Assembly (NCBI GenBank): GCA_025060275.1
Contig: JANXCJ010000001.1
Location: forward strand, 2,792-39,630
Length of the DNA stretch: 36,839 nt
Source: Bacteroidia bacterium
Lineage (GTDB): Bacteria; Bacteroidota; Bacteroidia; SpSt-205
Reading direction: 5' to 3'
Positions within the stretch are counted from its first letter, which is position 1. The number at the start of each line of letters is the position of its first letter. The position numbers and the translations under genes were made by a program. Below, one piece after another: positions 5,983 to 29,197 of the stretch. The notes beneath the pieces are model-generated. The model was not told the DNA's origin. It saw only the letters and a program-made list of their open reading frames with translations, and did no database searches.

Positions 5983-6521
5983 ATTTTCTCAGCAATCTTT
6001 GCCACCCATGAAACCTCCTTTGAATAAGAGGGGGAAGAAAACATAGAGGAAGACGGAGCGGGAGAAGGTGTAAGAGGACTCTTTGTGAATTGGTCCAATT
6101 TCTCCAACTGCAGAGTAAGAAAAGAGCGAAGCTCCAACAAAATATCTTGTTTGCGCTGCTGGAGAGCCTGAATGGATTGCTCTATTTCTTCTTTTTTTCG
6201 TTGGAGGTTAGCAAGGACCTCTTCTGCCTTCTGGCGAGCCTCTTGAAGGATAAGAGCAGCGTTTTTCTCTGCATTCTGAAGAGTAATGCGACTATTCTCT
6301 TCTGCCTGTAAGAGGGTCCTTTGAAGAAGAGCCTCCATTTCTTTGTATCGGTTCAGCTCGGAAGTCAATTGCTCTACCTTTTGGCGGAGAGCATGACGGT
6401 CATCCAAGAGATTACCCCACTCTTGGGCTACCCTTCTGAGAAAAGTGCGTACTTCATCGGGGTCATAGCCTCGGAGAGCTCGGTTGAAGCTCTGATTTTG
6501 GATGTCCATGGGGGTAAGCAT
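5979..6521 (-). CDS. DivIVA domain-containing coiled-coil protein
   Basis: N-terminus MLTPMDIQNQSFNRALRGYDPDEVRTFL is the DivIVA signature. The remainder is heptad-rich coiled coil. Confidence 0.8.
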   Translation of the reverse strand: MLTPMDIQNQSFNRALRGYDPDEVRTFLRRVAQEWGNLLDDRHALRQKVEQLTSELNRYKEMEALLQRTLLQAEENSRITLQNAEKNAALILQEARQKAEEVLANLQRKKEEIEQSIQALQQRKQDILLELRSFLTLQLEKLDQFTKSPLTPSPAPSSSMFSSPSYSKEVSWVAKIAEKI

Positions 6522-6539
6522 ATAGCTTGACTACTTAGG

Positions 6540-6547
6540 CAAATATA
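6540..6547 (-). promoter_or_regulatory. -7 box TATATTTG upstream of the divIVA-dcd-lpxD operon
   Basis: Minus strand reads TATATTTG, then 18 nt to the ATG at 6521. Confidence 0.4.
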
Positions 6548-6562
6548 TCAAAAATCGCTCCT

Positions 6563-7843
6563 CTACACCCCTATCGGGATAAGGGCAGGCTTAGCGTGCT
6601 TTTCAAATTCTGAGCGATACTTTTGGACGATGGCCCTAATAGGCCATACGGCTGCATCTGCGAGGGCACATATAGTCCTTCCCTCTATTTGATTAGCAAC
6701 TGAAAGAAGTCTATCTATATCTGCATAAGTAGCGGTGCCTTCTAAAAAACGATACAAAATCTGCTTCATCCAGCCTGTGCCTTCCCTGCAAGGGGTACAC
6801 TGGCCGCATGATTCATGCTTATAGAATGCCGCAATTCTATATGCAAAACGCACCATGTCTGTATCTTCATCCAGTATGAGCATGCCTGCAGTGCCCATCA
6901 TTGAGCCTACCTTACGTAGGGCCTCAGCTGTCATGCGCGTGCCTTCTATCTCTTGAGGAGTTAAGATGGGAGTTGAGGCACCACCTGGGACGACTCCTTT
7001 GAGCTTCTTCCCATGCCGTATTCCACCCCCTACTTCATAGACAAGGTCTGTAATTAACATCCCACTGGGATATTCATACACACCAGGACGCTGAATGTGT
7101 CCAGAAAGCCCGTATAAAACAGGACCAGGATGTTCTGGCGCACCGATTTGAGTGTAGGTAGTAGCCCCCATGCGTAGTACTAATGGCACATGAGCAAGCG
7201 TCTCCACATTGTTTATGGTGGTAGGACAGTCCCACAATCCCCGTTGCGCAGGGAAGGGAGGTTTGTAGCGAGGATAAGCCCGTTTCCCCTCTAAGGATTC
7301 CATAAGCCCTGTTTCTTCTCCACATATGTAAGCCCCTGCTCCTTTGTGTATGTACATTTGTGTGGAAAAATCAGTGCCTAATATTTTCTCTCCTATATAG
7401 CCTCTCGCATAGGCCTGATTCACAGCAGCTTGTAGACGATCTATCCAATCTGCATACTCACCTCTAATATAAACATAAATAGCATCTATTTGCATAGCGT
7501 AAGCCGCTATTAGGGCTCCCTCTATGAAAAGGTGAGGATTAAACTCAAAGATTCTCCTATCCTTGCAAGTGCCTGGTTCAGACTCATCGCCGTTAGCGGC
7601 GAGGTAGCGGCGTACCCCTTCTTTTTTGGGAGGCATGAAGCTCCATTTCAAGCCTGCGTTGAAGCCTGCTCCGCCCCGCCCCCTAATATTAGCAGCCTTA
7701 ATTTCCTCTATAACCTGAGAAGGGGTCATTTCTTTGAGTACCCTTTTCAACTGCCCATATCCTCCATGAGCTTCATAGATGCTAATATCATGTAAGTTAG
7801 GTATCTTAGGAAGGAGAAGAGGTTTATAGCTGCGCCATTCCAT
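6563..7843 (-). CDS. nuoF: NADH-quinone oxidoreductase subunit F (NuoF/51 kDa-type flavoprotein)
   Basis: 426 aa. FMN/NADH site GRGGAGF, and the N3 4Fe-4S motif ESCGQCTPCREG plus a later C. No other nuo genes are adjacent. Confidence 0.85.
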   Translation of the reverse strand: MEWRSYKPLLLPKIPNLHDISIYEAHGGYGQLKRVLKEMTPSQVIEEIKAANIRGRGGAGFNAGLKWSFMPPKKEGVRRYLAANGDESEPGTCKDRRIFEFNPHLFIEGALIAAYAMQIDAIYVYIRGEYADWIDRLQAAVNQAYARGYIGEKILGTDFSTQMYIHKGAGAYICGEETGLMESLEGKRAYPRYKPPFPAQRGLWDCPTTINNVETLAHVPLVLRMGATTYTQIGAPEHPGPVLYGLSGHIQRPGVYEYPSGMLITDLVYEVGGGIRHGKKLKGVVPGGASTPILTPQEIEGTRMTAEALRKVGSMMGTAGMLILDEDTDMVRFAYRIAAFYKHESCGQCTPCREGTGWMKQILYRFLEGTATYADIDRLLSVANQIEGRTICALADAAVWPIRAIVQKYRSEFEKHAKPALIPIGV

Positions 7844-12246: not shown

Positions 12247-12445
12247 CCAAACTCTTCTACCCAAACCCTCAGAGAGACAGAGCTTCAAAGGTAAAAGATA
12301 AGAGAATTGGCTTCGTCCGCCCTTTCGCTCTGTAACCCTTTTCTTACGGTACTTTTAGAAACAGGATTGTCTAAGAGTGAGTATTTCGCTTCATTTGAAT
12401 ATAACACATGCCATGAGGTGGGCCTCGCATAGGTAAGATTTTTTC

Positions 12446-13634
12446 CTAAGAGTGAGCTACGTCAGCATAGATCAGAACGCCTAAACTGCTATGGAGGCGC
12501 ACTTGGCTCTGGTTAGGTAGTCCCAAGAGGCAAAGCTCTTCACTACTTGCCCTATAGATAGCGTGAGGAGAGAGCTGAGTCGGATTATGGAGTTGGGTAG
12601 ATTGCTTCTGCCGCATTACCCAAGGGTATTGATGAAAGACATCAGTAGCATCAAGCTGTGGAGTATTTCCATATCCTACCGTGAAGTATCAATCACCTAC
12701 CTGCGTGAGAAAGGGTTCATCAATAGCCGTAACATTTGCACATTTCCCCTCCACACCAGACGGGACAACAACTAATTCTTTGGGACACCAACTCTCCCAA
12801 TCTCTAAGCACAAGCTGGCAAGAGCAGTAAGTAGATCGAAAACCTCTCTCATCAGGAGCACTAAAATATACCCACCAGACAGTTCCTTCACAGCACAAAT
12901 GTGGCTGTACCTCATAGGGCGCTTGATCGTTCAACTACCTACTCACCCGAATTGGAGACGCCCAAGTGCCTCCATCGTCTGAAACCCAACATAATATACC
13001 CTCCCTACTTCTCTCAAGGAAAAGGAGCAATTGTTTATTTGGCAGCCTGTTAATATTAGGGGTTATCCTCGTGTATTGGACTGCTCAGAATAAGCACGCC
13101 CCCTGAAAAAGAAGGATTTACCAGGATGTTCCGCAGAAGCATGATCTCCATGCCCACCGCACCCGTATCCAGCGTAAAACAAACACATCAAAAGTATCTT
13201 GTTTCCCAAGACACCACAAGCTCCCCCTTCATAAGTAACAGATTTTCATAAGTTACAGGAGCGTCACGCGGAGAAATCTTGCGTAGGAGCTAAACGTTCT
13301 GCCTTGATAATATCGCTATGAATGTAACTCGGGCAGCCAAAAGGACTAGTAAGGGTATCTATGTCTAAGAGAGGAACTTGCAAATAAGGTGTGAAAAGTT
13401 TTTGCGGGGATACCAGTTTTGAAGCCAGGAAAGTAGTTCATATGGAAAGTATGTCCTAAAAAGATTCCGACCCTCACGAGTAATATACAGCCCATCCTCC
13501 CATCCCTCCGTAGCAATAGATAGAGGCTGGGGTATCTCATAGGTTATTGTATCTGCTATAAGGAAACATGCGTTGGCGAATATCTGCTGACACTTTACCT
13601 GGGCTGCCAGTGCAGAAGAGGGGATACCTCCACA
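12446..13634 (-). pseudogene. decayed BNR/Asp-box repeat (sialidase-like beta-propeller) gene
   Basis: About 1.2 kb without an intact ORF. On the minus strand one frame reads ...CWVSDDGGTWASPIRVSR-TAG(12935-12937)-LNDQAPYEVQ...TQVGD-TGA(12689-12691)-YFTVGYGN...ADVAHS-TAG(12446-12448). SDDGGTW (12962-12982) is an exact SxDxGxTW Asp-box. Upstream fragments (IATEGWEDGLYITREGRNLF; LDTGAVGMEIMLLRNILVNP) lie in other frames. Confidence 0.5.
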
Positions 13635-13647
13635 CTATAGAATAAGC

Positions 13648-13989
13648 CTAATCCCTATGATTACCTTCTGCCCCTCCTAATGTGCGGTCTCCAGTATTTT
13701 CTACGACTGAGAGAAGTTCTCCCATCAGTTCCTTTATGATGTTGTCAGCCTCCACCCTTGGGACCACTGCATATAGGTCTGGACTATTGCTGCTTCCTGT
13801 CAGGGTCCCCCTCCCATCGCTCAAGGTAAGCTTGTATAGAATAGCTCCATTAGAGAGCACAAAGAATTCTAAACGGCTTGCCCCTAAGGTAGCCCGCAAA
13901 GCATGCCACTCCTCTCCACTAAGAGGATGCGCTAAAGATATAAGATACTTAGCCCGCCAAGCACAAACTTGTATTTTTTCACACTTCAT
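13648..13989 (-). CDS. hypothetical protein, third gene of an unknown three-gene operon
   Basis: 113 aa ORF whose ATG overlaps the stop of the 423 aa gene (ATGA at 13986-13989). I recognise no motif. A Roadblock/LC7-like fold is speculation only. Confidence 0.55.
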   Translation of the reverse strand: MKCEKIQVCAWRAKYLISLAHPLSGEEWHALRATLGASRLEFFVLSNGAILYKLTLSDGRGTLTGSSNSPDLYAVVPRVEADNIIKELMGELLSVVENTGDRTLGGAEGNHRD

Positions 13990-16924: not shown

Positions 16925-17884
16925 CTAAGTAGTCTTCCTCAAGAAGTTTTGGCGATCATAAAGTAGCCGATCTAAGGCATATTTGCTAATTACATAGGTA
17001 AAGTAAGGCGAATGAAGAAGCCTCACATAATAGTGGAGCGTACTTGTAGGGTGCGGATAGACTATCCAGTGGTAAGTTTTACCCGACCAAAGGAAAACGC
17101 GCATTTCTGCAAGAGGGCTGAGCCCCTTCAGAGAGTCAGGAGAGATTAATTCATCTGCATAAAACTTCCCTGCATAAGCTAAAAGATACTGAGCCACTTC
17201 AAAGGAGTCTATGGGCTCCCCTGTACTGAGGCGCCAAGGCTCTCCCCTCATAGAACACTCTAAGCGCCAGCTCCTGAGAGGCGCTCCATAAAAGTCCAGC
17301 TGTATAGCTTGTAGGTCTGCTATTCTTGCATCAAAGATGAGATTAGGCTGCCACACACCTATATCTGGGTAATAGCGAGAAGTTACATAGCCTTCTAAGC
17401 CAGGGAGGAATACCTCATAAGGTTGGTCGCTTCCCGGGCGGAGCATGTACGAAGCCTTTTGGTCGGGCGTAGGCCCCCCCACATAAAAAACTTCCTTCTT
17501 ACCATCTTGAAAGTACAAAGACACTTCTATCCTATGGTCCCGTAGAAACTGAAGTACGTTTCGGATAGCAGGGGGAGCCACGGGTGCGCGAGGCATTTGG
17601 GCACTCAAGGTGTGAAGGAGAGTCTTTACAGGTTGAGTAAAAGCTTCCAGCGTATCGCCGATATACCAGGTTCCTTGGCTGCGACGCAGGTCTATTCTGC
17701 GAAAAATCGTATCTCCATGCTTTTCCACCAAGGATATGGCGACTATCGCCCCTGTATCAGGAAAGGAAAACTGCCGAGCTTTTTCGGCTCTTTTCTGCAC
17801 AATCCTATTACCTATGAGTACTATGACTACCCCTGCACCAATTGTCAGGAGTAAAGCTATTGTGCCAAGCGTACTCCGCTTCAT
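16925..17884 (-). CDS. DUF4340-like protein that typically follows gldG
   Basis: Single N-terminal TM (MKRSTLGTIALLLTIGAGVVIVLI) followed by a soluble body. Its position directly after gldFG matches the usual gene order. The ATG at 17884 forms an ATGA overlap with the gldG stop; the ORF is open to 17917. Confidence 0.55.
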   Translation of the reverse strand: MKRSTLGTIALLLTIGAGVVIVLIGNRIVQKRAEKARQFSFPDTGAIVAISLVEKHGDTIFRRIDLRRSQGTWYIGDTLEAFTQPVKTLLHTLSAQMPRAPVAPPAIRNVLQFLRDHRIEVSLYFQDGKKEVFYVGGPTPDQKASYMLRPGSDQPYEVFLPGLEGYVTSRYYPDIGVWQPNLIFDARIADLQAIQLDFYGAPLRSWRLECSMRGEPWRLSTGEPIDSFEVAQYLLAYAGKFYADELISPDSLKGLSPLAEMRVFLWSGKTYHWIVYPHPTSTLHYYVRLLHSPYFTYVISKYALDRLLYDRQNFLRKTT

Positions 17885-19572
17885 ACTAAGGGTTTCGCAT
17901 AACGATGCTTCCGCCAAAAATAAAATCCAACCCCTACCCCTATCATAAGGAAAATGGGTAACCCTAAATTGAATACTTGAATACTCAGTGCATGGGCCCT
18001 AACGAAGGCAGGGTCTAAACGGCGCAACTGAATACTTCGACTGCGCACTTGGGTAAGGGCTATTTCTCCGGTAAGATAATCTATGCAGTTCAAGATAAAA
18101 GTAAGATTATCCAAAGGTACGTAGTCGGCGAAACGCCCCTGGACTTCCGCAGGAAGGGCAAACTCTCCGTCTGTAATCCATATAGCTTTGCCTACTAATC
18201 CTGAGCGCGGAAGGTAACGAGCAGTGGGAGGCTTCGGTGCATAATTATCTGTAGGAGGCTCCCTGTCCTGAAAGACCGACTCAAAGTATCCCTCAGTAAG
18301 GACGGCAACGGGACGAAATCCTTTGCCCTTAAAAGCTTCTGGAGCTGGAGGATTTTTGAGAGTGAGGTTAATATCTATCAGCTGCGTACCCTTCACGGAG
18401 CGACTGAAAGGCGAGGTAACCGCCAGAATGGTATGACGAAGCCCCGCTCTGAAGATAGTATCCAAACTGCTTGCATACCTGTACATTACTGCATCTACCG
18501 TACGAGTAATAGGATGGGAGGGGAAGATATAAACTACGGGATAGTACAGCCATTTCTCAGCTCCCCAGAGAGGTCCGTGATAATACCCCCGGATGACCTC
18601 TATATGCCCACAGGATAAATCTTGAACAAGGTCATAAGCTGGGCGCCACCCCCACCGAAAAAATAGATCATCAATATTGAGCTCCCTTAGCTGCGTAAGG
18701 GCACTACCCTCCGTAAGGTTGATGCGATGATAATCCAGAAGCCAGAGTATGCGACCTCCTCGCAAAAGGTACTGCTCAAGCTCATACTTCTCCCGCTCTG
18801 TAAAAGCGCTATCAGGCCCTATTACAATAATAGCAGCGAACCCCTCTCCCACTAAGCGGCGTCTAAGGCTATCAGGAAGGTAAGCCTTGGCAGGTGCTAT
18901 AGCTTGCCCTTCCCGCAGGCTTACAGGAAGGAGCCGGTAGTACCTTTCAAGCTCTGCTTTGAGCTGTGGCATCTGTTCCAGGCTATATTCCCCATGCCGT
19001 GTTAAGAGCCCGAGAATGGGCTTCTCTCCATACACAGTAATCTGGCGCAGAGCAGCAGCTATTTTGTACTCTACTTCCTGCTCGGCTTCTAAGAGGTCTA
19101 TCTCACCTGTAGACCTTAGATTTCCCTTCACTAAATCTACCCAAATATCTTGCTGACCACACTGAACTACCGCAATAGGATACATATATTGCCGGCGTGT
19201 CTCTGTCTGTGAGACACGGACGTTTATGGGAATAGGCTGAACACCCCTCTGCTTGAAGAGCTTGATTACATCAGGATGTTTAGCAGGATTAACGAAAGTG
19301 AAGTTCAGGGGCTTTGGAGAGATGGCTCGCATCTCGGCCAGTAGGGTCTCTATAGCTCGCTTATATCGCTGAATAGGATAGGGAAAATCTCCTTCTAAGT
19401 ACACCGTGATATAGGTAGCTTGCGGGAGATGCTGCAGCAGAGAACGAGTCCCCTCAGAGAGGGTGTATCTCTTATCCTCTGTGAGGTCTATCCGAAAGAA
19501 ATACAGCTGCCCTCCTAAATAAGCCAATACAGAGAGTCCTAAAATTAGTATTACCTGCACCGAAGCCCTCAT
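17881..19572 (-). CDS. gldG: gliding-motility-associated ABC transporter auxiliary/substrate-binding component GldG
   Basis: 563 aa with N- and C-terminal TM anchors around a large periplasmic body. It begins with the family-typical FRIDLTEDKRYTLS and is coupled to the ABC-2 permease gene by an ATGA overlap. Confidence 0.75.
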   Translation of the reverse strand: MRASVQVILILGLSVLAYLGGQLYFFRIDLTEDKRYTLSEGTRSLLQHLPQATYITVYLEGDFPYPIQRYKRAIETLLAEMRAISPKPLNFTFVNPAKHPDVIKLFKQRGVQPIPINVRVSQTETRRQYMYPIAVVQCGQQDIWVDLVKGNLRSTGEIDLLEAEQEVEYKIAAALRQITVYGEKPILGLLTRHGEYSLEQMPQLKAELERYYRLLPVSLREGQAIAPAKAYLPDSLRRRLVGEGFAAIIVIGPDSAFTEREKYELEQYLLRGGRILWLLDYHRINLTEGSALTQLRELNIDDLFFRWGWRPAYDLVQDLSCGHIEVIRGYYHGPLWGAEKWLYYPVVYIFPSHPITRTVDAVMYRYASSLDTIFRAGLRHTILAVTSPFSRSVKGTQLIDINLTLKNPPAPEAFKGKGFRPVAVLTEGYFESVFQDREPPTDNYAPKPPTARYLPRSGLVGKAIWITDGEFALPAEVQGRFADYVPLDNLTFILNCIDYLTGEIALTQVRSRSIQLRRLDPAFVRAHALSIQVFNLGLPIFLMIGVGVGFYFWRKHRYAKPLV

Positions 19573-20294
19573 GGATGGTACCGAGAAAGTTGAAGCCGTG
19601 CCAAACCTAGTCCCCCTACTATGAGACAGATAAAGTAGAGAATATCTCGGCTATCTACTACTCCTCTACTTATGCTTCGGTAGTGCTCCATGAGACTGAG
19701 CTCTGCCAAGATGCGCTGTAAAACTTTACCCACAGGCAGTTCGGAAGCAAACTCAAATCCTATCAGCCAGACAAAGCCCACGAATAGCCCTATTAGAAAG
19801 GCGATAATAGTGTGGTGTGTAAGAGTAGAAGCCCAGAGGCCCCATGCTGTCAAGCTCAGTCCTAAGGCAAAAAGCCCCAAGTATGCACCCTGGATAGCTC
19901 CGTGATCCACCGCCCATTTAGGCTGAGCTAACCATGCAATACTAGTGTAAAATACAAGGGTAGGGATAAGCGCAAAGGCGAGCACACCCGCTGCCGCTAA
20001 GTATTTTGCTCCAAGAATTTCCCAAGAAGATATCGGTGCTGTAGCTAAGAGCTCATAGGAACCTGTGCGAAATTCATCTGCAAAAGTACGCATGGTAAGG
20101 CTGGGAGCTAAAAAGAGCATAAACCAAGGAGCAATACTAAAGAAAGCATCCATTTCAGCCGCTAAGGTCTGCAGAACGCTCCCCGAAAATACCCATACGA
20201 ATAGCCCCGTCCCTATCAGAAAAATACCCCATACCACATAAGCAATAGAGGAATGAAGAAGGGAGAAAGTTTCTTTTCTCCACAAAGCCAGCAC
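19569..20294 (-). CDS. gldF: gliding-motility-associated ABC-2 type permease GldF
   Basis: 241 aa, six predicted TM helices, ABC-2 permease architecture, directly upstream of gldG. GTG start sits behind a -7 box. Confidence 0.7.
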   Translation of the reverse strand: MLALWRKETFSLLHSSIAYVVWGIFLIGTGLFVWVFSGSVLQTLAAEMDAFFSIAPWFMLFLAPSLTMRTFADEFRTGSYELLATAPISSWEILGAKYLAAAGVLAFALIPTLVFYTSIAWLAQPKWAVDHGAIQGAYLGLFALGLSLTAWGLWASTLTHHTIIAFLIGLFVGFVWLIGFEFASELPVGKVLQRILAELSLMEHYRSISRGVVDSRDILYFICLIVGGLGLARLQLSRYHP

Positions 20295-21142: not shown

Positions 21143-21859
21143 ATGATTCAAAAAATGGTAGTTGGTATCTTGGCTTGTTATTTATGGGCGCAGAATGTGG
21201 GCATAGGTACTACCACACCTATCTGGAATCTAACCGTAATGGTCTCCACCCAGCGCACCATAAGTAATCCAGCGACGGCGGGAATTGGGGTAGTCTCTCC
21301 GATGGCTGAAGGGGACGGCCAGCAAGCTATAATTGCATTGCACTGGTTTAATGCTGCTCTGCCTTATGCTTATCGGCTATGGCTTGGCGACCCAGACGGA
21401 GGATACGGCGTACAAGCTAACGCTCTGGAGCTGTGGGAGTATCCGAACACAAATCCTTGTTGTAGGCCGCGATTTAGGATAGCTCCTACTCGTAACCTAA
21501 ATTACAATCGTCAGCCCGTAACAATTACAGCAAATAACTGGGTAGAGGCCTATGGTTTCAATGTGATCTCCGACTCCTCTCAGAAAGAGCATATCTCACC
21601 TCTACCCTACGGGCTATCAGAATTGTTGCGATTGCATCCCGTAATTTATAAATGGGACCATGAATCCTACGAGTCCCCCCCTCATGTGGGCTTCATAGCC
21701 CAGGAGGTTGGGCAGGTTATACCTGAAGCTATAGTCTCTACACCTGAGGGAACCGTGGGTATAGATGCTGCAGCCCTGACAGCTCTTCTATGCCGTTCCA
21801 TACAAGAACTCGCTAATAGAGTAGAAAGCTTAGAGAAATGGTGGTTACAACGAAAATGA
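21143..21859 (+). CDS. secreted small tail-fibre-like protein with a C-terminal Peptidase_S74 intramolecular chaperone domain (paralogue 1)
   Basis: Signal peptide ...YLWAQNVGIGTTTP. Core motifs are ALPYAYRLW, DPDGGYGV, ELWEYP and CCRPRFRI. The C-terminus is SDSSQKEHISPL...VGFIAQEV..IPEA...GIDAAALTALL..IQEL...LE. Confidence 0.75.
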   Translation: MIQKMVVGILACYLWAQNVGIGTTTPIWNLTVMVSTQRTISNPATAGIGVVSPMAEGDGQQAIIALHWFNAALPYAYRLWLGDPDGGYGVQANALELWEYPNTNPCCRPRFRIAPTRNLNYNRQPVTITANNWVEAYGFNVISDSSQKEHISPLPYGLSELLRLHPVIYKWDHESYESPPHVGFIAQEVGQVIPEAIVSTPEGTVGIDAAALTALLCRSIQELANRVESLEKWWLQRK

Positions 21860-22614
21860 ATAGGTTTGTCCTCCTGATTATATTTTATTCTGCATTTTGG
21901 GCTTACGCCCAGGAAAGAGTAGGCATAGGCACTGCTCTTCCTAACTTCAACCTAGAGGTATATGTACCCTATCCAAGAATTTCATCAGGAGGCGCTATCC
22001 ATACTTCTAGTGTATGCGTAGCAGCCAATATGCCCCAAGACGGACAACAAGGCATTCTCGCTTATCACTTGTCTAACTCAGCTCTCCCCTATACTTGGCG
22101 CATATGGTACAGTGATCCTGATGGAGGATATGGCGTAGGGCCCCTTAATCTGGAGATATGGGAATATCCTGATCAGTGGGGGGGAGGAAGCTGTTGTCGT
22201 AGCCGCTTTAGAATAGTTACTACTTACCCATCAGTAAATTACAGCTCACTCCCTGTGCAAATAGACAACCAGAATCGCTTTATTGCATATGGATATTCCA
22301 ACATATCAGACGCCAGCCATAAGATAGGAGTACGCCCATTAGAAAGTACTCTCCAACATGTACGCTCCCTCAATCCTGTTATTTTCCACTGGAAAGGCAC
22401 CCCTCATGCACAAATAGGCTTTATAGCCCAAGAGGTTCAGCGCATTTTCCCAGAAGCTGTCAGAGTAGACACCTCATCCTCTCTACTTGCTGTAGATTAT
22501 CCTGCCTTAATTTCCATTCTGACCCGAGCTGCACAAGAGCTTTCCAAAAAAATAGAGGAATTAGAAAAAGCTATTCAAGGGCTCGGGCGAGAACTTTCTG
22601 AGTCTCAAAATTAG
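21856..22614 (+). CDS. secreted small tail-fibre-like protein with a C-terminal Peptidase_S74 chaperone domain (paralogue 2)
   Basis: The ATG at 21856 forms an ATGA overlap with the paralogue 1 stop and gives the signal peptide MNRFVLLIIFYSAFWAYAQERVGIGT. The ORF is open from 21838. Core motifs are ALPYTWRIW, DPDGGYGV, EIWEYP and CCRSRFRI. The C-terminus is SDASHK...IGFIAQEV..FPEA...VDYPALISIL..AQEL. Confidence 0.75.
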   Translation: MNRFVLLIIFYSAFWAYAQERVGIGTALPNFNLEVYVPYPRISSGGAIHTSSVCVAANMPQDGQQGILAYHLSNSALPYTWRIWYSDPDGGYGVGPLNLEIWEYPDQWGGGSCCRSRFRIVTTYPSVNYSSLPVQIDNQNRFIAYGYSNISDASHKIGVRPLESTLQHVRSLNPVIFHWKGTPHAQIGFIAQEVQRIFPEAVRVDTSSSLLAVDYPALISILTRAAQELSKKIEELEKAIQGLGRELSESQN

Positions 22615-22621
22615 TACTGCA

Positions 22622-23404
22622 ATGCGGACCTATATATTTTTATTGGGGAGTTTCTTACTTCTTTCAGCGCAAGAAAATGTAGGTATAGGCACAGCTATTC
22701 CTATTTTCAATATGCATGTGGAGGTCCCATACTCCGTAGCGATTAGCTCTGCAGGTAATGCCGGCATTGGCGTCGTGTCCGACATGATAGCTGACGGTAT
22801 CCAAAGCGACATAGCATTTCATTTGACCAATACAGCTCTTTCGAATGGTCCTTTTTTCAGCTTTTCCAAATGGTCCTTCTGGATGGCCGATCCGAATGGA
22901 GGCTATGGAGTTATAGCTAACAGCTGGGAGATATGGGAATACCCTCCTTCCTCAGGCAATCAATGTTGTCGGCACCGCTTCCGAGTATTGGCAGGAAGTA
23001 CCGCAGCAGGCCCTGCTTATGTAGATGCCAACCAGGAAGTTTATGCCTACGGCTTTATCACCTACTCCGATGCTCGCTTGAAGCAATCTATATACCCCTT
23101 TCCAAAAGGATTAGAATCCCTTTCAGCTCTCCGCCCTGTAAGATACACATGGAAGGATAATAATGTGGAAAGAATAGGCTTTATTGCTCAAGAGGTAGGT
23201 GATGCTCTTCCTCAAGCTCGCATATTCACGACAGATTCATTACAAGGGGTAGATTACATAGCACTCACGGCTGTACTCGTGAATGCTGTACAGGAACTCT
23301 CTCACAAACTAAGCCTCCTTGAGAAAAAGAAGCAAGAGCTGGAAGCCCTATACCAGGCGCGACAAAAAAATCTAAGCCTTCCCCCCAAGCAACCAGGAGA
23401 GTAA
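22622..23404 (+). CDS. secreted small tail-fibre-like protein with a C-terminal Peptidase_S74 chaperone domain (paralogue 3)
   Basis: Signal peptide MRTYIFLLGSFLLLSAQENVGIGT. Core motifs are DPNGGYGV, EIWEYP and CCRHRFRV. The C-terminus is SDARLK...IGFIAQEV..LPQA...VDYIALTAVL..VQEL, followed by a coiled-coil tail. Confidence 0.75.
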   Translation: MRTYIFLLGSFLLLSAQENVGIGTAIPIFNMHVEVPYSVAISSAGNAGIGVVSDMIADGIQSDIAFHLTNTALSNGPFFSFSKWSFWMADPNGGYGVIANSWEIWEYPPSSGNQCCRHRFRVLAGSTAAGPAYVDANQEVYAYGFITYSDARLKQSIYPFPKGLESLSALRPVRYTWKDNNVERIGFIAQEVGDALPQARIFTTDSLQGVDYIALTAVLVNAVQELSHKLSLLEKKKQELEALYQARQKNLSLPPKQPGE

Positions 23405-23542
23405 AATGACTTCATGAGAGTGGCTCCTCATACCCCCCAGTTTAGAAACCTCAAAAACCTTGCGTAAAGATTGGTACGGATAATCCTCTCTACTCTACTG
23501 ACTTTAAAAGCTGGTAGCGTCTAAGGACCTCCCCTATTTCCT

Positions 23543-27913: not shown

Positions 27914-28522
27914 TTAAAAATGGTATCTAATCCACAGACGAAGCATAAGGAGAGTATCTTGGCGAAGCTCCACCACGGCAGGAAGGCCTTGAGTGAGCTG
28001 AGGGAAAAAATAACCTCTCCAGTTCCACATAATATCCGGCGGATTCCCCTCGTCGTTGTCCAAAAGCGCTATCTCGTACCTCTGACCAGGATGGGAGATA
28101 GATAAGCTATCTCTTAGCACAATAGGATATGGGCTTCCTTCCGCGAGGTCGTGGAACGAGGTGAAGTCATCCCACTCGTATGCAGGCATAGTTTCCCTTC
28201 GTATGGCCACTTGGAGCTCAGGAGGATAGTCATCAAACATATCCACCCAATTTTGATCCCAGCCCTTTCCATTGGGTTTTACAGCAGGGTAATTGAATAT
28301 GGCTACACTATCAATTACAGCCGCTTTGAAGGGAGGCTTGCCAAACTCACAATATTTCCCTTCATAATTAGGGCTACAAACGCATTTCCCCTCCACGCAC
28401 TGCCCCCGCTGCTCATATTCTCCACAGCTACCTTCACTGCACTCCTTGACCTCCTTTTTGCACCCAGAACAAAGAAGAAGAGTCGCCAACAAGATGTACA
28501 TCTTATCATTATTAGCCATCAT
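27914..28522 (-). CDS. lipoprotein with an N-terminal EGF-like domain
   Basis: Lipobox LLLCSGC. After it come six Cys, CSEGSCGEYEQRGQCVEGKCVCSPNYEGKYC, where CVCSPNYEGKYC fits the EGF signature C-x-C-x(5)-G-x(2)-C. The remaining ~140 aa are unassigned. Confidence 0.65.
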   Translation of the reverse strand: MMANNDKMYILLATLLLCSGCKKEVKECSEGSCGEYEQRGQCVEGKCVCSPNYEGKYCEFGKPPFKAAVIDSVAIFNYPAVKPNGKGWDQNWVDMFDDYPPELQVAIRRETMPAYEWDDFTSFHDLAEGSPYPIVLRDSLSISHPGQRYEIALLDNDEGNPPDIMWNWRGYFFPQLTQGLPAVVELRQDTLLMLRLWIRYHF

Positions 28523-28541
28523 TCTTCTGAGTGCGGCCCTG

Positions 28542-28613
<72 letters not shown>

Positions 28614-28683: not shown

Positions 28684-29169
28684 TCATCTCTTTTTGAGAA
28701 GCCACTTGCAAGTTGTACTTGAGCCTATTCCTCCTCGTACATCAAGTTGAATCAAAAGGCTATCCTGCCACCGCTCTGCCCATCCTTCTACCTCTAAAGC
28801 AGTATCCTGAAGCATTTGCCTAGAAAACCGCATGCGATTGAAGGAAACCAGCTGTCCTGCAAGTGTGTCTAAATAATCACCATAGATAGGTCCGGCGAGG
28901 TAAAGGGTGCGACTCACAAACGAATCTTGCCACATTTCATACCGAAGGCCGCTTCGGACCCCCTTACAATCCCGCCGCCCTTCCCATGGTCCAATAAACT
29001 GCATTCTTACATCTTCTTCACAGCTCTCCCCCCAGTATGGCAGATTACACTGGCACTGCCCCTGAACACACTCCCCACCATTCTGACAAAGGGCTATGCA
29101 GGGCGATGGCTTCTTTTGCGAACACCCAAGAAGAAGTGGCAGGATTAGCAGAAAACTTCTCCCTCTCAT
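28684..29169 (-). CDS. lipoprotein with an N-terminal EGF-like domain (second copy of the architecture)
   Basis: The ATG at 29169 gives the canonical lipoprotein signal MRGRSFLLILPLLLGC. After it comes CIALCQNGGECVQGQCQCNLPYWGESC, where CQCNLPYWGESC fits C-x-C-x(5)-G-x(2)-C. The ORF is open to 29196, but that ATG lies inside a -7 box and abuts the upstream terminator. Confidence 0.65.
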   Translation of the reverse strand: MRGRSFLLILPLLLGCSQKKPSPCIALCQNGGECVQGQCQCNLPYWGESCEEDVRMQFIGPWEGRRDCKGVRSGLRYEMWQDSFVSRTLYLAGPIYGDYLDTLAGQLVSFNRMRFSRQMLQDTALEVEGWAERWQDSLLIQLDVRGGIGSSTTCKWLLKKR

Positions 29170-29189
29170 ATCAGCTCTTTCCAGCCTTC

Positions 29190-29197
29190 CAAACATA
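29190..29197 (-). promoter_or_regulatory. -7 box TATGTTTG, 20 nt before the ATG at 29169
   Basis: Exact TAnnTTTG match on the minus strand, immediately after the terminator T-tract. Confidence 0.4.

What the first reader, a model, noticed from the sequence alone, without database searches (positions are those of the whole stretch)
21143..23404. Tandem triplet of mini 'tail-fibre' genes: signal peptide, novel CCRxRFR core and self-cleaving S74 chaperone, with no phage context
Seen in the sequence:
- Three adjacent same-strand genes (238, 252 and 260 aa) are clear paralogues.
- Each starts with a signal peptide ending A-Q-x-x-VGIGT.
- Each then has a ~130 aa core with invariant blocks: ALPY..R.W (paralogues 1-2), DP(D/N)GGYGV, E(L/I)WEYP, and a vicinal Cys pair in CCRxRFR(I/V). 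The Cys pair is encoded TGTTGT at 21458, 22193 and 22964.
- Each ends with ~90 aa matching the Peptidase_S74 pattern: S-D-x-x-x-K, IGFIAQEV, P(E/Q)A, (V/I)D..AL, QEL, LE.

Established knowledge: in endosialidases and phage tail spikes/fibres, this C-terminal domain drives trimerisation. It then cleaves itself off at the Ser of the SDxxxK Ser-Lys dyad.

Why it is unusual: the domain normally caps long fibres, but here the passenger is a tiny domain I cannot assign. The genes are triplicated and diverged, and nothing nearby encodes capsid, terminase, baseplate or integrase functions.

Inference: these are host-encoded, exported, trimeric mini-fibres. They could be surface adhesins, a surface-layer component or toxin/bacteriocin-like heads, and the family is undergoing paralogous diversification.
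Basis: partly seen in the sequence, partly recalled or inferred. Interest (0 to 1): 0.72.

Follow-up and report, generated by a model that had tools for sequence, protein, structure and literature searches.

The report
Three-gene operon of mini self-cleaving fibres
A hot-spring-type Bacteroidia bacterium carries a conserved operon of three small exported proteins, each a previously unnamed 130-residue module capped by the self-cleaving trimerisation domain known from phage tail fibres; they are host genes rather than phage genes, and are a stripped-down version of bacterial fibres already described in Bdellovibrio.

Summary
Three co-directional genes (21143-21859, 21856-22614, 22622-23404) encode paralogues that are 44-46% identical. 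Each has a Sec signal peptide cut before Gln, a VGIGTxxPxxNL loop, a ~110 aa module (DPDGGYGV, EIWEYP, CCRxRFR) and a significant Peptidase_S74/ICA domain with an invariant SDxxxK.

There is no phage context. The window is made of housekeeping genes. The same 1-2-3 triplet sits between unrelated flanks in at least six other Bacteroidia lineages. The core is absent from 2.9 million viral contigs.

- Exported, non-phage, S74-capped fibres are already known (Bdellovibrio MAT family), and VGIGT is their "capping loop".
- The core is not private to the mini proteins. It recurs as a module in about 25 longer fibres, with or without S74. It still has no Pfam, PHROG, PDB or BFVD match.
- The triplication is old and stable (three orthogroups). 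The core is more conserved than the chaperone, so this is not ongoing diversification.

Most likely each product trimerises, cleaves itself before the Ser, and leaves a ~14 kDa-per-chain trimeric knob in the cell envelope. A 1:1:1 heterotrimer and a Cys-Cys interchain knot are open, untested possibilities.

Verdict: new variant of a known kind, moderate interest.

The parts
21143..21859 (+). Gene 1 (238 aa; alternative start M5 at 21155 gives 234 aa), orthogroup 1. NCBI MCS7188195.1 / MDW8134144.1, 'tail fiber domain-containing protein'.
21856..22614 (+). Gene 2 (252 aa; alternative start at 21838 gives 258 aa), orthogroup 2. Its ATG overlaps the TGA of gene 1 (ATGA).
22622..23404 (+). Gene 3 (260 aa), orthogroup 3. 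It starts 7 nt after the stop of gene 2, and this spacing is conserved in L001 and L004.
21143..21190 (+). Signal peptide of gene 1 (aa 1-16). Predicted SPase I cut is WA|QN (Q-rule).
   Evidence: sequence; PMC5837995
21856..21909 (+). Signal peptide of gene 2 (aa 1-18). Predicted cut is YA|QE.
   Evidence: sequence, (helix 2-17)
22622..22669 (+). Signal peptide of gene 3 (aa 1-16). Predicted cut is SA|QE.
   Evidence: sequence
21194..21232 (+). Capping-loop motif NVGIGTTTPIWNL of gene 1.
21916..21954 (+). Capping-loop motif RVGIGTALPNFNL of gene 2.
22676..22714 (+). Capping-loop motif NVGIGTAIPIFNM of gene 3.
21191..21568 (+). Mature passenger of gene 1 (aa 17-142): capping loop plus the DPDGGYGV / ELWEYP / CCRPRFR module.
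21910..22305 (+). Mature passenger of gene 2 (aa 19-150). The AF2 core model has four beta strands with pLDDT 73-93 over residues 40-110 of this segment.
22670..23065 (+). Mature passenger of gene 3 (aa 17-148). It has the orthogroup-3 insertion SNGPFFSFSK.
21458..21463 (+). Invariant Cys-Cys codons (C106 C107) of gene 1.
22192..22197 (+). Invariant Cys-Cys codons (C113 C114) of gene 2.
22964..22969 (+). Invariant Cys-Cys codons (C115 C116) of gene 3.
21569..21856 (+). S74/ICA domain of gene 1 (aa 143-238). SDSSQK is at 21569-21586, with predicted cleavage I142|S143. The C-terminal helix is short and ends ...LEKWWLQRK.
22306..22611 (+). S74/ICA domain of gene 2 (aa 151-252). SDASHK is at 22306-22323, with predicted cleavage I150|S151. 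AF2 pLDDT is about 90, and Foldseek matches MyRF ICA 7dc3.
23066..23401 (+). S74/ICA domain of gene 3 (aa 149-260). SDARLK is at 23066-23083, with predicted cleavage Y148|S149. The C-terminal coiled coil has an invariant Lys at a heptad a-position.

Best explanation
This is a chromosomal, translationally coupled three-gene operon. It encodes three ancient paralogues of a minimal bacterial (non-phage) S74-capped trimeric protein.

Proposed sequence of events:
1. Each precursor is exported by Sec and cut by signal peptidase I before an N-terminal Gln. This is the Bacteroidetes Q-rule, so the new N-terminus probably becomes pyroglutamate.
2. In the periplasm, the C-terminal ICA/S74 domains of three chains associate through their C-terminal heptad helix. 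This templates folding of the upstream ~125-130 residues into a short trimeric beta-structure. That structure comprises one VGIGTxxPxxNL capping loop plus a four-stranded DPDGGYGV / EIWEYP / CCRxRFR module.
3. The Ser-Lys dyad of SDxxxK then cuts the chain just before the Ser (I142|S143, I150|S151, Y148|S149). This releases a ~10-12 kDa chaperone and leaves a kinetically stable knob of three ~14 kDa chains.
4. The only invariant cysteines, the vicinal pair, may staple the trimer by interchain disulfides, as in the collagen III knot.

By default I assume three separate homotrimers, as in every characterised S74 protein, which act together in the cell envelope as structural or adhesive elements. 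Their ligand is unknown.

Shown here: gene structure, domain identity, catalytic motif, non-phage context, conservation of the triplet, and modular distribution of the core.
Inferred: export, trimerisation, cleavage, disulfide stapling, location and role.
For: - S74 domain: PF13884 hits at E 1e-12 to 1e-14. S, D and K of SDxxxK are invariant in 22 members.
- Predicted fold: the AF2 C-terminal domain has pLDDT ~90. It matches MyRF ICA 7dc3 at E 5e-4 and TM 0.65, with the endosialidase chaperone 3gw6 and T5 fibre 4uw8 next at non-significant E ~0.1.
- PDB sequence hits are tail fibres 8jov and 6f45 and MyRF 7dc3, over the C-terminus only.
- Mechanism of the dyad, cleavage N-terminal of the Ser, and coiled-coil-driven trimerisation: PMC8326128.
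- Canonical heptads after QEL in all three orthogroups.
- Signal peptides with Gln at +1 in 18/18 N-terminally complete signal-peptide members (PMC5837995).
- The VGIGT motif equals the MAT capping loop, and a self-cleaving Bdellovibrio S74 fibre has been demonstrated.
- The window consists of housekeeping genes.
- The triplet keeps the same order with different flanks in SKYG92, KatS3mg026, binchicken_co170_15, SRR13170868/Ga0181962 and GCA_033583795; in GCA_026419235 only the third gene is captured, at a contig start.
- No viral contig carries the core, and there is no PADLOC hit.
- There are three orthogroups by position. The core is more conserved than S74.
- ATGA overlap and a 7-nt gap between genes.
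- The AF2 core model has pLDDT 73-93 over residues 40-110 and four strands.
Against: - No experiment shows export, trimerisation or cleavage for this family.
The monomer model has no structural neighbour.
- No T9SS CTD, lipobox or other outer-membrane export signal was found, so a surface location is unsupported.
- Several features fit a heteromeric assembly better than three independent homotrimers. These are strict 1:1:1 retention, equal evolutionary rates of the three orthologue pairs, and an invariant Lys at a coiled-coil core position in orthogroup 3.
- One relative (P0187) lacks the Cys-Cys loop, so the cysteines are not essential to the fold.
Confidence: 0.6

Rival explanations
1. The three products co-assemble into one obligate 1:1:1 heterotrimer, analogous to the tandem C1q A/B/C genes. 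The three diverged ICA domains would set chain composition and register before cleaving themselves off.
For: - One member of each orthogroup is retained in the same order in each lineage with a complete locus, despite unrelated flanks.
- Translational coupling: ATGA overlap and a conserved 7-nt gap.
- Near-equal divergence of the three orthologue pairs between genomes: 70.6/69.7/64.4, 61.1/60.2/58.5 and 55.6/54.7/55.1%.
- Orthogroup 3 has an invariant Lys (7/7) at a heptad a-position where groups 1 and 2 are hydrophobic.
- Group 1 has Trp at the adjacent g position in 6/8 members, and its helix ends about one turn later.
- Group 2 has Glu at g13 facing Glu at e18 in half its members, which would repel in a homotrimer.
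Against: - Every characterised S74/ICA protein is a homotrimer: endoNF, T5 pb1, MyRF and Bd3182 (PMC8326128, PMC10769870).
- Tandem S74 fibre genes that are not orthologous triplets also occur (L014, L034).
- There are too few sequences for a covariation test.
- No multimer model could be run.
Confidence: 0.27
2. The genes are remnants of a prophage or tailocin tail-fibre cluster that has been domesticated or is decaying in the chromosome.
For: PHROG tail-fibre families hit the C-terminal ~100 residues (E down to 7e-22). NCBI names them 'tail fiber domain-containing protein'.
Against: - The PHROG hits cover only the S74 part. The core alone hits no PHROG.
- All three have signal peptides, whereas phage fibres assemble in the cytoplasm.
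- There are no capsid, terminase, baseplate, sheath or integrase genes in the window or in four other contexts.
- The only tRNA is 5 kb away.
- GC content is flat.
- The core is absent from 2.9 million viral contigs.
- Intact orthologues are kept across lineages, with the core under stronger constraint than the chaperone.
Confidence: 0.04
3. The S74 domain is not released. It stays attached as a permanent C-terminal trimerisation and coiled-coil domain, so the functional unit is the full ~25 kDa chain.
For: - The passenger is unusually small for a chaperone of nearly equal size.
- The C-terminal tails after the ICA fold are conserved per orthogroup. That is unexpected for a discarded fragment.
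Against: - The Ser, Asp and Lys of SDxxxK are invariant in all 22 members. There would be no reason to keep them if catalysis were lost.
- Within orthogroups the S74 part evolves faster than the core, as expected for a transient assembly aid.
Confidence: 0.09

Closest known systems
Bdellovibrio bacteriovorus MAT (mosaic adhesive trimer) fibres, S74 subgroup, e.g. Bd3182 (Caulton et al. 2024, PMC10769870)
   Same: - Chromosomally encoded in a bacterium, not a phage.
- N-terminal signal peptide.
- The V-G-(G/N)-pi-x-x-P-x-x-x-L capping-loop motif (NVGIGTxxPxxxL).
- A C-terminal S74 domain with SDxxxK, which self-cleaves in Bd3182.
- The Bd3182 mature tip between its first capping loop and the cleavage Ser is ~135 aa, the same size as the whole passenger here.
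   Different: - MAT fibres are ~900-1000+ aa. They have a conserved N-terminal anchor domain and a stalk hundreds of angstroms long. Here the entire mature chain is 125-130 aa.
- The core has no detectable sequence similarity to MAT tips beyond the capping loop and no significant fold match.
- MAT genes are described here as 21 members identified across the genome, and no conserved orthologous triplet operon is reported in the passages read.
- The phylum differs (Bacteroidota versus Bdellovibrionota), and there is no predatory lifestyle to explain them.
Phage endosialidase / tail-fibre intramolecular chaperone domain (endoNF CIMCD 3GW6; T5 pb1 4UW8; Pfam PF13884)
   Same: Homologous C-terminal domain, Ser-Lys dyad, and C-terminal helix for a triple coiled coil. 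The expected role is a trimerisation chaperone that cuts itself off.
   Different: - The window proteins have no virion attachment domain, no phage context and no long beta-helix or enzyme passenger.
- They carry a signal peptide, so assembly would be periplasmic rather than cytoplasmic.
MyRF ICA domain with beta-helical stalk (7DC3, PMC8326128)
   Same: This is the best structural match of the predicted C-terminal domain (E 5e-4). A capping-loop-like motif lies upstream (RVGINTDRPDEALV). It is a non-viral use of the domain, with trimer-dependent cleavage.
   Different: MyRF is a eukaryotic ER-membrane transcription factor. Its ICA is followed by a transmembrane segment, and cleavage releases a DNA-binding trimer. 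Here there is no TM segment and no DNA-binding domain.
Bacteroidota 'tail fiber domain-containing proteins' of 300-970 aa that carry the same core module (e.g. P0121, P0122, P0126, P0127, P0181, P0256; NS74 forms P0025, P0032)
   Same: They share the same DPDGG(Y/F)GV / E(I/L)WEYP / CCRxR(F/L) module flanked by NVGIGT loops. Most have signal peptides, and many end in S74.
   Different: - They have extra N-terminal domains, extra VGIGT repeats or C-terminal tip domains.
- They occur as single genes, and the module is sometimes duplicated within one chain.
- None has been studied experimentally, as far as the searches here show.
Collagen type III C-terminal cystine knot (GPCCG; Boudko et al. 2008, cited in PMC7824840). 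Analogy only.
   Same: Two adjacent cysteines on each of three parallel chains. In collagen III they form three interchain disulfides that lock the trimer.
   Different: There is no sequence or fold relationship. The disulfide pattern here is entirely untested, and an intrachain vicinal disulfide or a metal site is equally possible.

Membership tests
Peptidase_S74 / intramolecular chaperone auto-processing (ICA) domain, PF13884 | Significant match to the family HMM above the gathering score | tested here: met
   47.4, 53.5 and 51.2 bits against a cut-off of 22; E 2.3e-12 to 2.9e-14
Peptidase_S74 / intramolecular chaperone auto-processing (ICA) domain, PF13884 | Ser-Lys catalytic dyad in the S-D-x-x-x-K motif at the start of the domain | tested here: met
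   S, D and K are invariant in 22/22 aligned members: SDSSQK, SDASHK and SDARLK in the window
Peptidase_S74 / intramolecular chaperone auto-processing (ICA) domain, PF13884 | ICA fold | tested here: met
   AF2 pLDDT ~90 for residues 150-252. Foldseek top hits are 7dc3 (E 5e-4, TMt 0.65), followed at non-significant E (~0.1) by 3gw6 and 4uw8
Peptidase_S74 / intramolecular chaperone auto-processing (ICA) domain, PF13884 | C-terminal amphipathic helix able to form the triple coiled coil that drives trimerisation | tested here: met
   A predicted helix spans 215-251. There is a 3-4 hydrophobic heptad pattern after QEL in all orthogroups. The oligomeric state itself was not modelled.
Peptidase_S74 / intramolecular chaperone auto-processing (ICA) domain, PF13884 | Autoproteolytic release of the domain | not testable with these tools
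   Needs expression of wild type and of S-to-A / K-to-A mutants
Bdellovibrio-type MAT fibres (S74 subgroup) | Signal peptide | tested here: met
   A positively charged n-region, a hydrophobic h-region and small|Gln in 18/18 N-terminally complete signal-peptide members. No dedicated predictor was available.
Bdellovibrio-type MAT fibres (S74 subgroup) | Capping-loop motif V-G-(G/N)-pi-x-x-P-x-x-x-L | tested here: met
   NVGIGTTTPIWNL, RVGIGTALPNFNL and NVGIGTAIPIFNM. The core profile hits Bd2133 8ond over this motif (E 8e-4). The motif table is in the paper's supplement.
Bdellovibrio-type MAT fibres (S74 subgroup) | Conserved ~130 aa beta-rich N-terminal (anchor) domain homologous among MATs | not tested
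   No full-length MAT sequence could be obtained with the tools. Whether the core here is related to it is open.
Bdellovibrio-type MAT fibres (S74 subgroup) | Long trimeric beta-helical or coiled stalk (fibre hundreds of angstroms long) | tested here: not met
   The mature chains are only 126, 132 and 132 residues with a single capping loop
Phage tail fibre / tailspike | Encoded in a phage or prophage next to virion genes | tested here: not met
   Housekeeping neighbours in the window and in four other contexts. 0 of 2.9 million viral contigs carry the core.
Phage tail fibre / tailspike | N-terminal virion-attachment region and cytoplasmic assembly (no signal peptide) | tested here: not met
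   PHROG matches cover only the C-terminal ~100 aa, and the core alone hits nothing. Signal peptides are present.
Type IX secretion cargo | C-terminal T9SS sorting domain | tested here: not met
   There is no Pfam or NCBIfam hit other than S74. The C-terminus is the ICA coiled coil.
Bacterial lipoprotein | Conserved lipobox Cys at the signal-peptide cleavage site | tested here: not met
   A Cys is present in the signal peptide of only some orthogroup-1 members, and none is conserved
Anti-phage defence system component | Match to a PADLOC model | tested here: not met
   0 families for all three proteins and for the upstream DUF429 protein

The most novel reading that the evidence does not exclude
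The three genes may encode the A, B and C chains of an obligate heterotrimeric mini-fibre. Three diverged self-cleaving S74 chaperones would dictate a 1:1:1 composition, for example through a Trp/Ile/Lys-type asymmetric layer in the C-terminal coiled coil. An invariant Cys-Cys pair would then lock the asymmetric trimer with a collagen-III-like interchain cystine knot. This would be the first heteromeric member of the S74/ICA world, and a bacterial counterpart of C1q-type heterotrimer assembly.
Probability: 0.22. Interest if true: 0.8.

Novelty: new variant of a known kind. Interest (0 to 1): 0.47.

Why it matters
S74/ICA domains are known as chaperones for long phage fibres and spikes, for MyRF and, since 2024, for the long predatory fibres of Bdellovibrio. 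This locus shows the same assembly device reduced to its minimum in free-living Bacteroidia: a signal peptide, one capping loop, one undescribed ~110 aa module and the chaperone.

Three things follow:
- It gives a small, tractable system (~25 kDa precursors) for studying chaperone-driven trimer folding and cleavage in the periplasm.
- It defines an unnamed, rare module (DPDGGYGV / EIWEYP / CCRxR). The module was found in only 15 loci, from about 14 genomes, among 185,579 species-representative genomes, and it deserves a family entry.
- The strictly conserved triplet raises the testable question of whether S74 domains can specify heterotrimers.

If the products are simply three homotrimeric envelope proteins of unknown ligand, the finding is a useful annotation refinement rather than a surprise.

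Tried and rejected
1. Trimer modelling. I built a linker-concatenated P1-P2-P3 alignment (A4) to coax AlphaFold2 into a trimer. No multimer evidence exists for or against trimer geometry, a heterotrimer or a Cys-Cys knot.
2. Full-length AF2 with 22 sequences gave pLDDT 30-47 for the core. A core-only run with 36 sequences improved this to a mean of 72. Foldseek against PDB and BFVD then found nothing below E 0.19, so the fold is unassigned.
3. The search for homologous proteins with a trimmed core alignment (A5) returned a single weak hit and not even the queries. I treat this as a word-index failure and not as evidence of rarity. Rarity rests instead.
4. Homology of the core to the Bdellovibrio MAT N-terminal domain could not be tested, because no full-length MAT sequence was reachable.
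5. Prophage or tailocin origin was rejected (see rival explanations).
6. A defence-system role was rejected, with no PADLOC hits.
7. T9SS cargo and lipoprotein routes were rejected, with no CTD and no conserved lipobox.
8. A link to the neighbouring GldG/ABC-2 gliding-type transporter or DUF429 was rejected, because these neighbours are not conserved in the other genomes.
9. The sigma-70 promoter and terminator scan found nothing useful. This is expected, because Bacteroidota promoters differ.


Full report
**Observation.** The window has three adjacent + strand ORFs at 21143-21859 (238 aa), 21856-22614 (252 aa, or 258 aa from 21838) and 22622-23404 (260 aa).
- They align over their whole length, with 44-46% identity to paralogue 1 and 74 invariant columns.
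- Gene 2's ATG overlaps gene 1's TGA (ATGA). Gene 3 starts 7 nt after gene 2's stop.
- All three hit Pfam PF13884 Peptidase_S74 well above threshold (E 2.3e-12, 2.9e-14, 1.6e-13). NCBIfam and PADLOC give nothing.
- The TGTTGT Cys-Cys codons are at 21458, 22192 and 22964.

**The C-terminal domain.**
- AlphaFold2 on paralogue 2 with a 22-sequence alignment gives pLDDT ~90 for residues 150-252.
- Foldseek places this part on the MyRF ICA domain 7dc3 (E 5e-4, target TM 0.65). Next, at non-significant E ~0.1, come the endosialidase chaperone 3gw6 and the T5 fibre chaperone 4uw8.
- PDB sequence hits are tail fibres 8jov and 6f45 and MyRF 7dc3. They cover only residues ~142-242.
- S, D and K of SDxxxK are invariant in all 22 family members aligned.
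- In MyRF and endoNF the Ser-Lys dyad cuts just N-terminal of the Ser. It does so only once the domain has trimerised through its C-terminal triple coiled coil (PMC8326128).
- The window proteins have a predicted helix at 215-251 with regular 3-4 heptads after QEL.
- Membership of the S74/ICA family is therefore met on every feature that can be tested in silico. Cleavage itself is inferred.

**The N-terminus.**
- Each protein starts with a basic n-region and a hydrophobic stretch. This ends small-residue|Gln in 18 of 18 N-terminally complete signal-peptide family members.
- That is the Bacteroidetes Q-rule for signal peptidase I substrates (PMC5837995).
- No lipobox is conserved and no T9SS C-terminal domain is present.
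- The following (N/R)VGIGTxxPxxNL is not a new motif. A profile of the core hits the Bdellovibrio Bd2133 fibre 8ond over exactly this stretch (E 8e-4).
- Caulton et al. 2024 describe it as the beta-helix capping loop V-G-(G/N)-pi-x-x-P-x-x-x-L of MAT fibres and MyRF (supplementary alignment).

**The core.**
- The ~110 residues after the loop carry the invariant P-x-G-(x2)-G-V of DPDGG(Y/F)GV, E-x-W-E-Y-P and C-C-R-x-R. This holds in the alignment of 36 core modules; 45 distinct modules were collected in all.
- The segment has no Pfam, NCBIfam or PHROG hit. It has no PDB sequence hit beyond the capping loop.
- A core-only AF2 run with 36 sequences gives mean pLDDT 72, and 73-93 over residues 40-110. 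It shows a four-stranded meander at 49-55, 62-68, 81-86 and 97-102.
- Foldseek finds nothing significant in PDB (best E 1.9) or BFVD (best E 0.19).
- The fold is therefore unassigned. By analogy with the 135-residue Bd3182 tip, which lies between its first capping loop and the S74 Ser and forms a trimeric beta-helix, an intertwined trimeric beta structure is likely.

**Distribution of the core.**
- A full HMMER scan of 1.84 billion representatives finds the whole module in only about 25 cluster representatives.
- Thousands of giant proteins (2,000-7,900 aa) match only profile positions 2-50, which is the VGIGT repeat.
- The full-module hits include longer fibres of 300-970 aa. In these the module sits between NVGIGT loops: once in P0122, P0126, P0127, P0181 and P0256, and twice in P0121. 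They usually end in S74.
- The module also occurs in S74-less proteins with other C-terminal domains (P0025, P0032, P0085).
- So the module is a shared building block of a mosaic fibre family, and the window proteins are its minimal architecture.
- Among 185,579 GTDB species representatives only 15 loci carry it, from about 14 genomes. JGI metagenomes give 23 loci. Of 2.9 million IMG/VR viral contigs, none carries it.

**Genomic context.**
- The window is ordinary chromosome. It encodes CorA, LpxD, dCTP deaminase, NuoF, TIM, PanC, an acyl-CoA dehydrogenase, a GldG/ABC-2 transporter, DUF429, PriA, a fatty-acid hydroxylase, a glycosyltransferase, an epimerase and ThiC.
- GC content is flat, and the single tRNA lies 5 kb away.
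- The triplet recurs in the same 1-2-3 order with the same tight spacing in several other lineages:
  - SKYG92 / GCA_033579115, with flanks DUF4197 and LigT;
  - KatS3mg026, with flanks a CHU_C giant protein and DNA ligase;
  - binchicken_co170_15 / Ga0105160, split over two contigs;
  - SRR13170868 / Ga0181962 and GCA_033583795;
  - GCA_026419235, where only the third gene is captured at a contig start and is followed by MetE.
- The cassette is thus conserved while its neighbours are not, and none of the neighbours is phage-like.

**Evolution.**
- A neighbour-joining tree of core+S74 segments resolves three orthogroups by gene position. Each contains the window, SKYG92 and KatS3mg026 copies; the split binchicken locus contributes to groups 1 and 3 only. 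The longer-fibre modules fall outside.
- Within orthogroups the core is 63-66% identical and the S74 part 42-55%. Between paralogues both are ~40-45%.
- The three orthologue pairs diverge almost equally between any two genomes.
- This is an old, stably retained triplication under purifying selection on the passenger. It is not ongoing diversification of a receptor-binding tip.

**Mechanism proposed.**
1. Sec export.
2. SPase I cleavage before Gln.
3. Periplasmic trimerisation nucleated by the ICA coiled coil.
4. Folding of the 125-130-residue passenger.
5. Ser-Lys autocleavage at I142|S143, I150|S151 and Y148|S149.
6. A stable trimeric knob of ~14 kDa chains remains.

The vicinal Cys pair is the only invariant cysteine feature of the mature chains. 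Six cysteines per trimer could form three interchain disulfides, as in the collagen III GPCCG knot (own knowledge; Boudko et al. 2008 as cited in PMC7824840). They could equally form three vicinal intrachain disulfides. P0187 lacks the loop altogether. Location beyond the periplasm, and the ligand, are unknown.

**Homo- or heterotrimer.** The prior favours homotrimers, because all characterised S74 proteins are homotrimers. Several observations lean the other way:
- strict 1:1:1 retention in fixed order;
- translational coupling;
- equal evolutionary rates of the three orthologue pairs;
- in the C-terminal helix, an invariant Lys (7/7) at a heptad a-position in orthogroup 3, where groups 1 and 2 are hydrophobic;
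- a Trp at the neighbouring g position in 6/8 of group 1, whose helix then ends;
- Glu-Glu g/e' pairs in half of group 2.

None of these is decisive. I give the heterotrimer about a one-in-four chance and state the tests that would settle it.

**Comparison and verdict.**
- The locus works like the S74 subgroup of Bdellovibrio MAT fibres. It contains a bona fide S74/ICA domain and the MAT/MyRF capping loop.
- It fails the MAT architecture test on the long stalk. Its relation to the MAT N-terminal domain could not be tested.
- It is not a phage tail fibre by context, by signal peptide or by the lack of an attachment domain.
- NCBI already annotates the three proteins as 'tail fiber domain-containing protein' (MCS7188195-7). 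The genes are therefore in databases, but they are not understood.
- I classify the locus as a new variant of a known kind. It is minimal, has an unnamed module, and forms a conserved paralogous triplet. Interest is moderate.

Noticed in passing
window 12247-13650: About 1.4 kb between panC and the next long ORF has no ORF longer than 81 aa and no Rfam match at gathering score. It could be an unannotated RNA, a decayed gene or a long regulatory region.
   Followed up: partly
window 27914-28522 (-) and 28684-29196 (-), tRNA-Met at 28541-28613 (-): Two small proteins with weak EGF / teneurin-EGF-like (Cys-rich) Pfam hits flank a tRNA-Met gene.
   Followed up: no
window 17881-20294 (-): A GldG-like protein (ABC_transp_aux + DUF7088) and an ABC-2 permease form a gliding-type ABC transporter pair. 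They lie just upstream of DUF429 and the triplet, but this neighbourhood is not conserved in the other genomes.
   Followed up: partly
L025/L026 5947-7075 (JGI contigs Ga0101945_1000007, Ga0101941_1000003): A 138 aa ORF with a signal peptide and the core module breaks after CCRPRLRIL. It continues in another frame (6314-7075) with more VGIGT repeats and a non-S74 C-terminus. This is either a frameshifted or mis-assembled S74-less fibre, or possibly programmed frameshifting.
   Followed up: partly
P0187 (333 aa): This relative has two tandem core copies that lack the Cys-Cys loop (EIWEYPATRRRFQI). It also has a collagen-like GPQGPQGPQGPPGP run and a Cys-rich C-terminus.
   Followed up: no
P0032, P0085, P0044 and others: The precomputed Pfam annotations list PF26696 and PF27534 on relatives. 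These families gave no hit when P0044 and P0063 were rescanned against the local Pfam copy, so what they cover could not be checked.
   Followed up: partly
giant proteins P0123-P0262: Thousands of 2,000-7,900 aa proteins carry 15-47 copies of the NVGIGTxxPxxxL unit. This is an enormous and largely uncharacterised class of repeat fibres that share the capping-loop motif.
   Followed up: no
window 23405-23542: The 138-nt spacer between gene 3 and convergent priA has no + strand terminator-like hairpin. The only two terminator-like matches lie on the - strand inside gene 3 (23313-23349).
   Followed up: no
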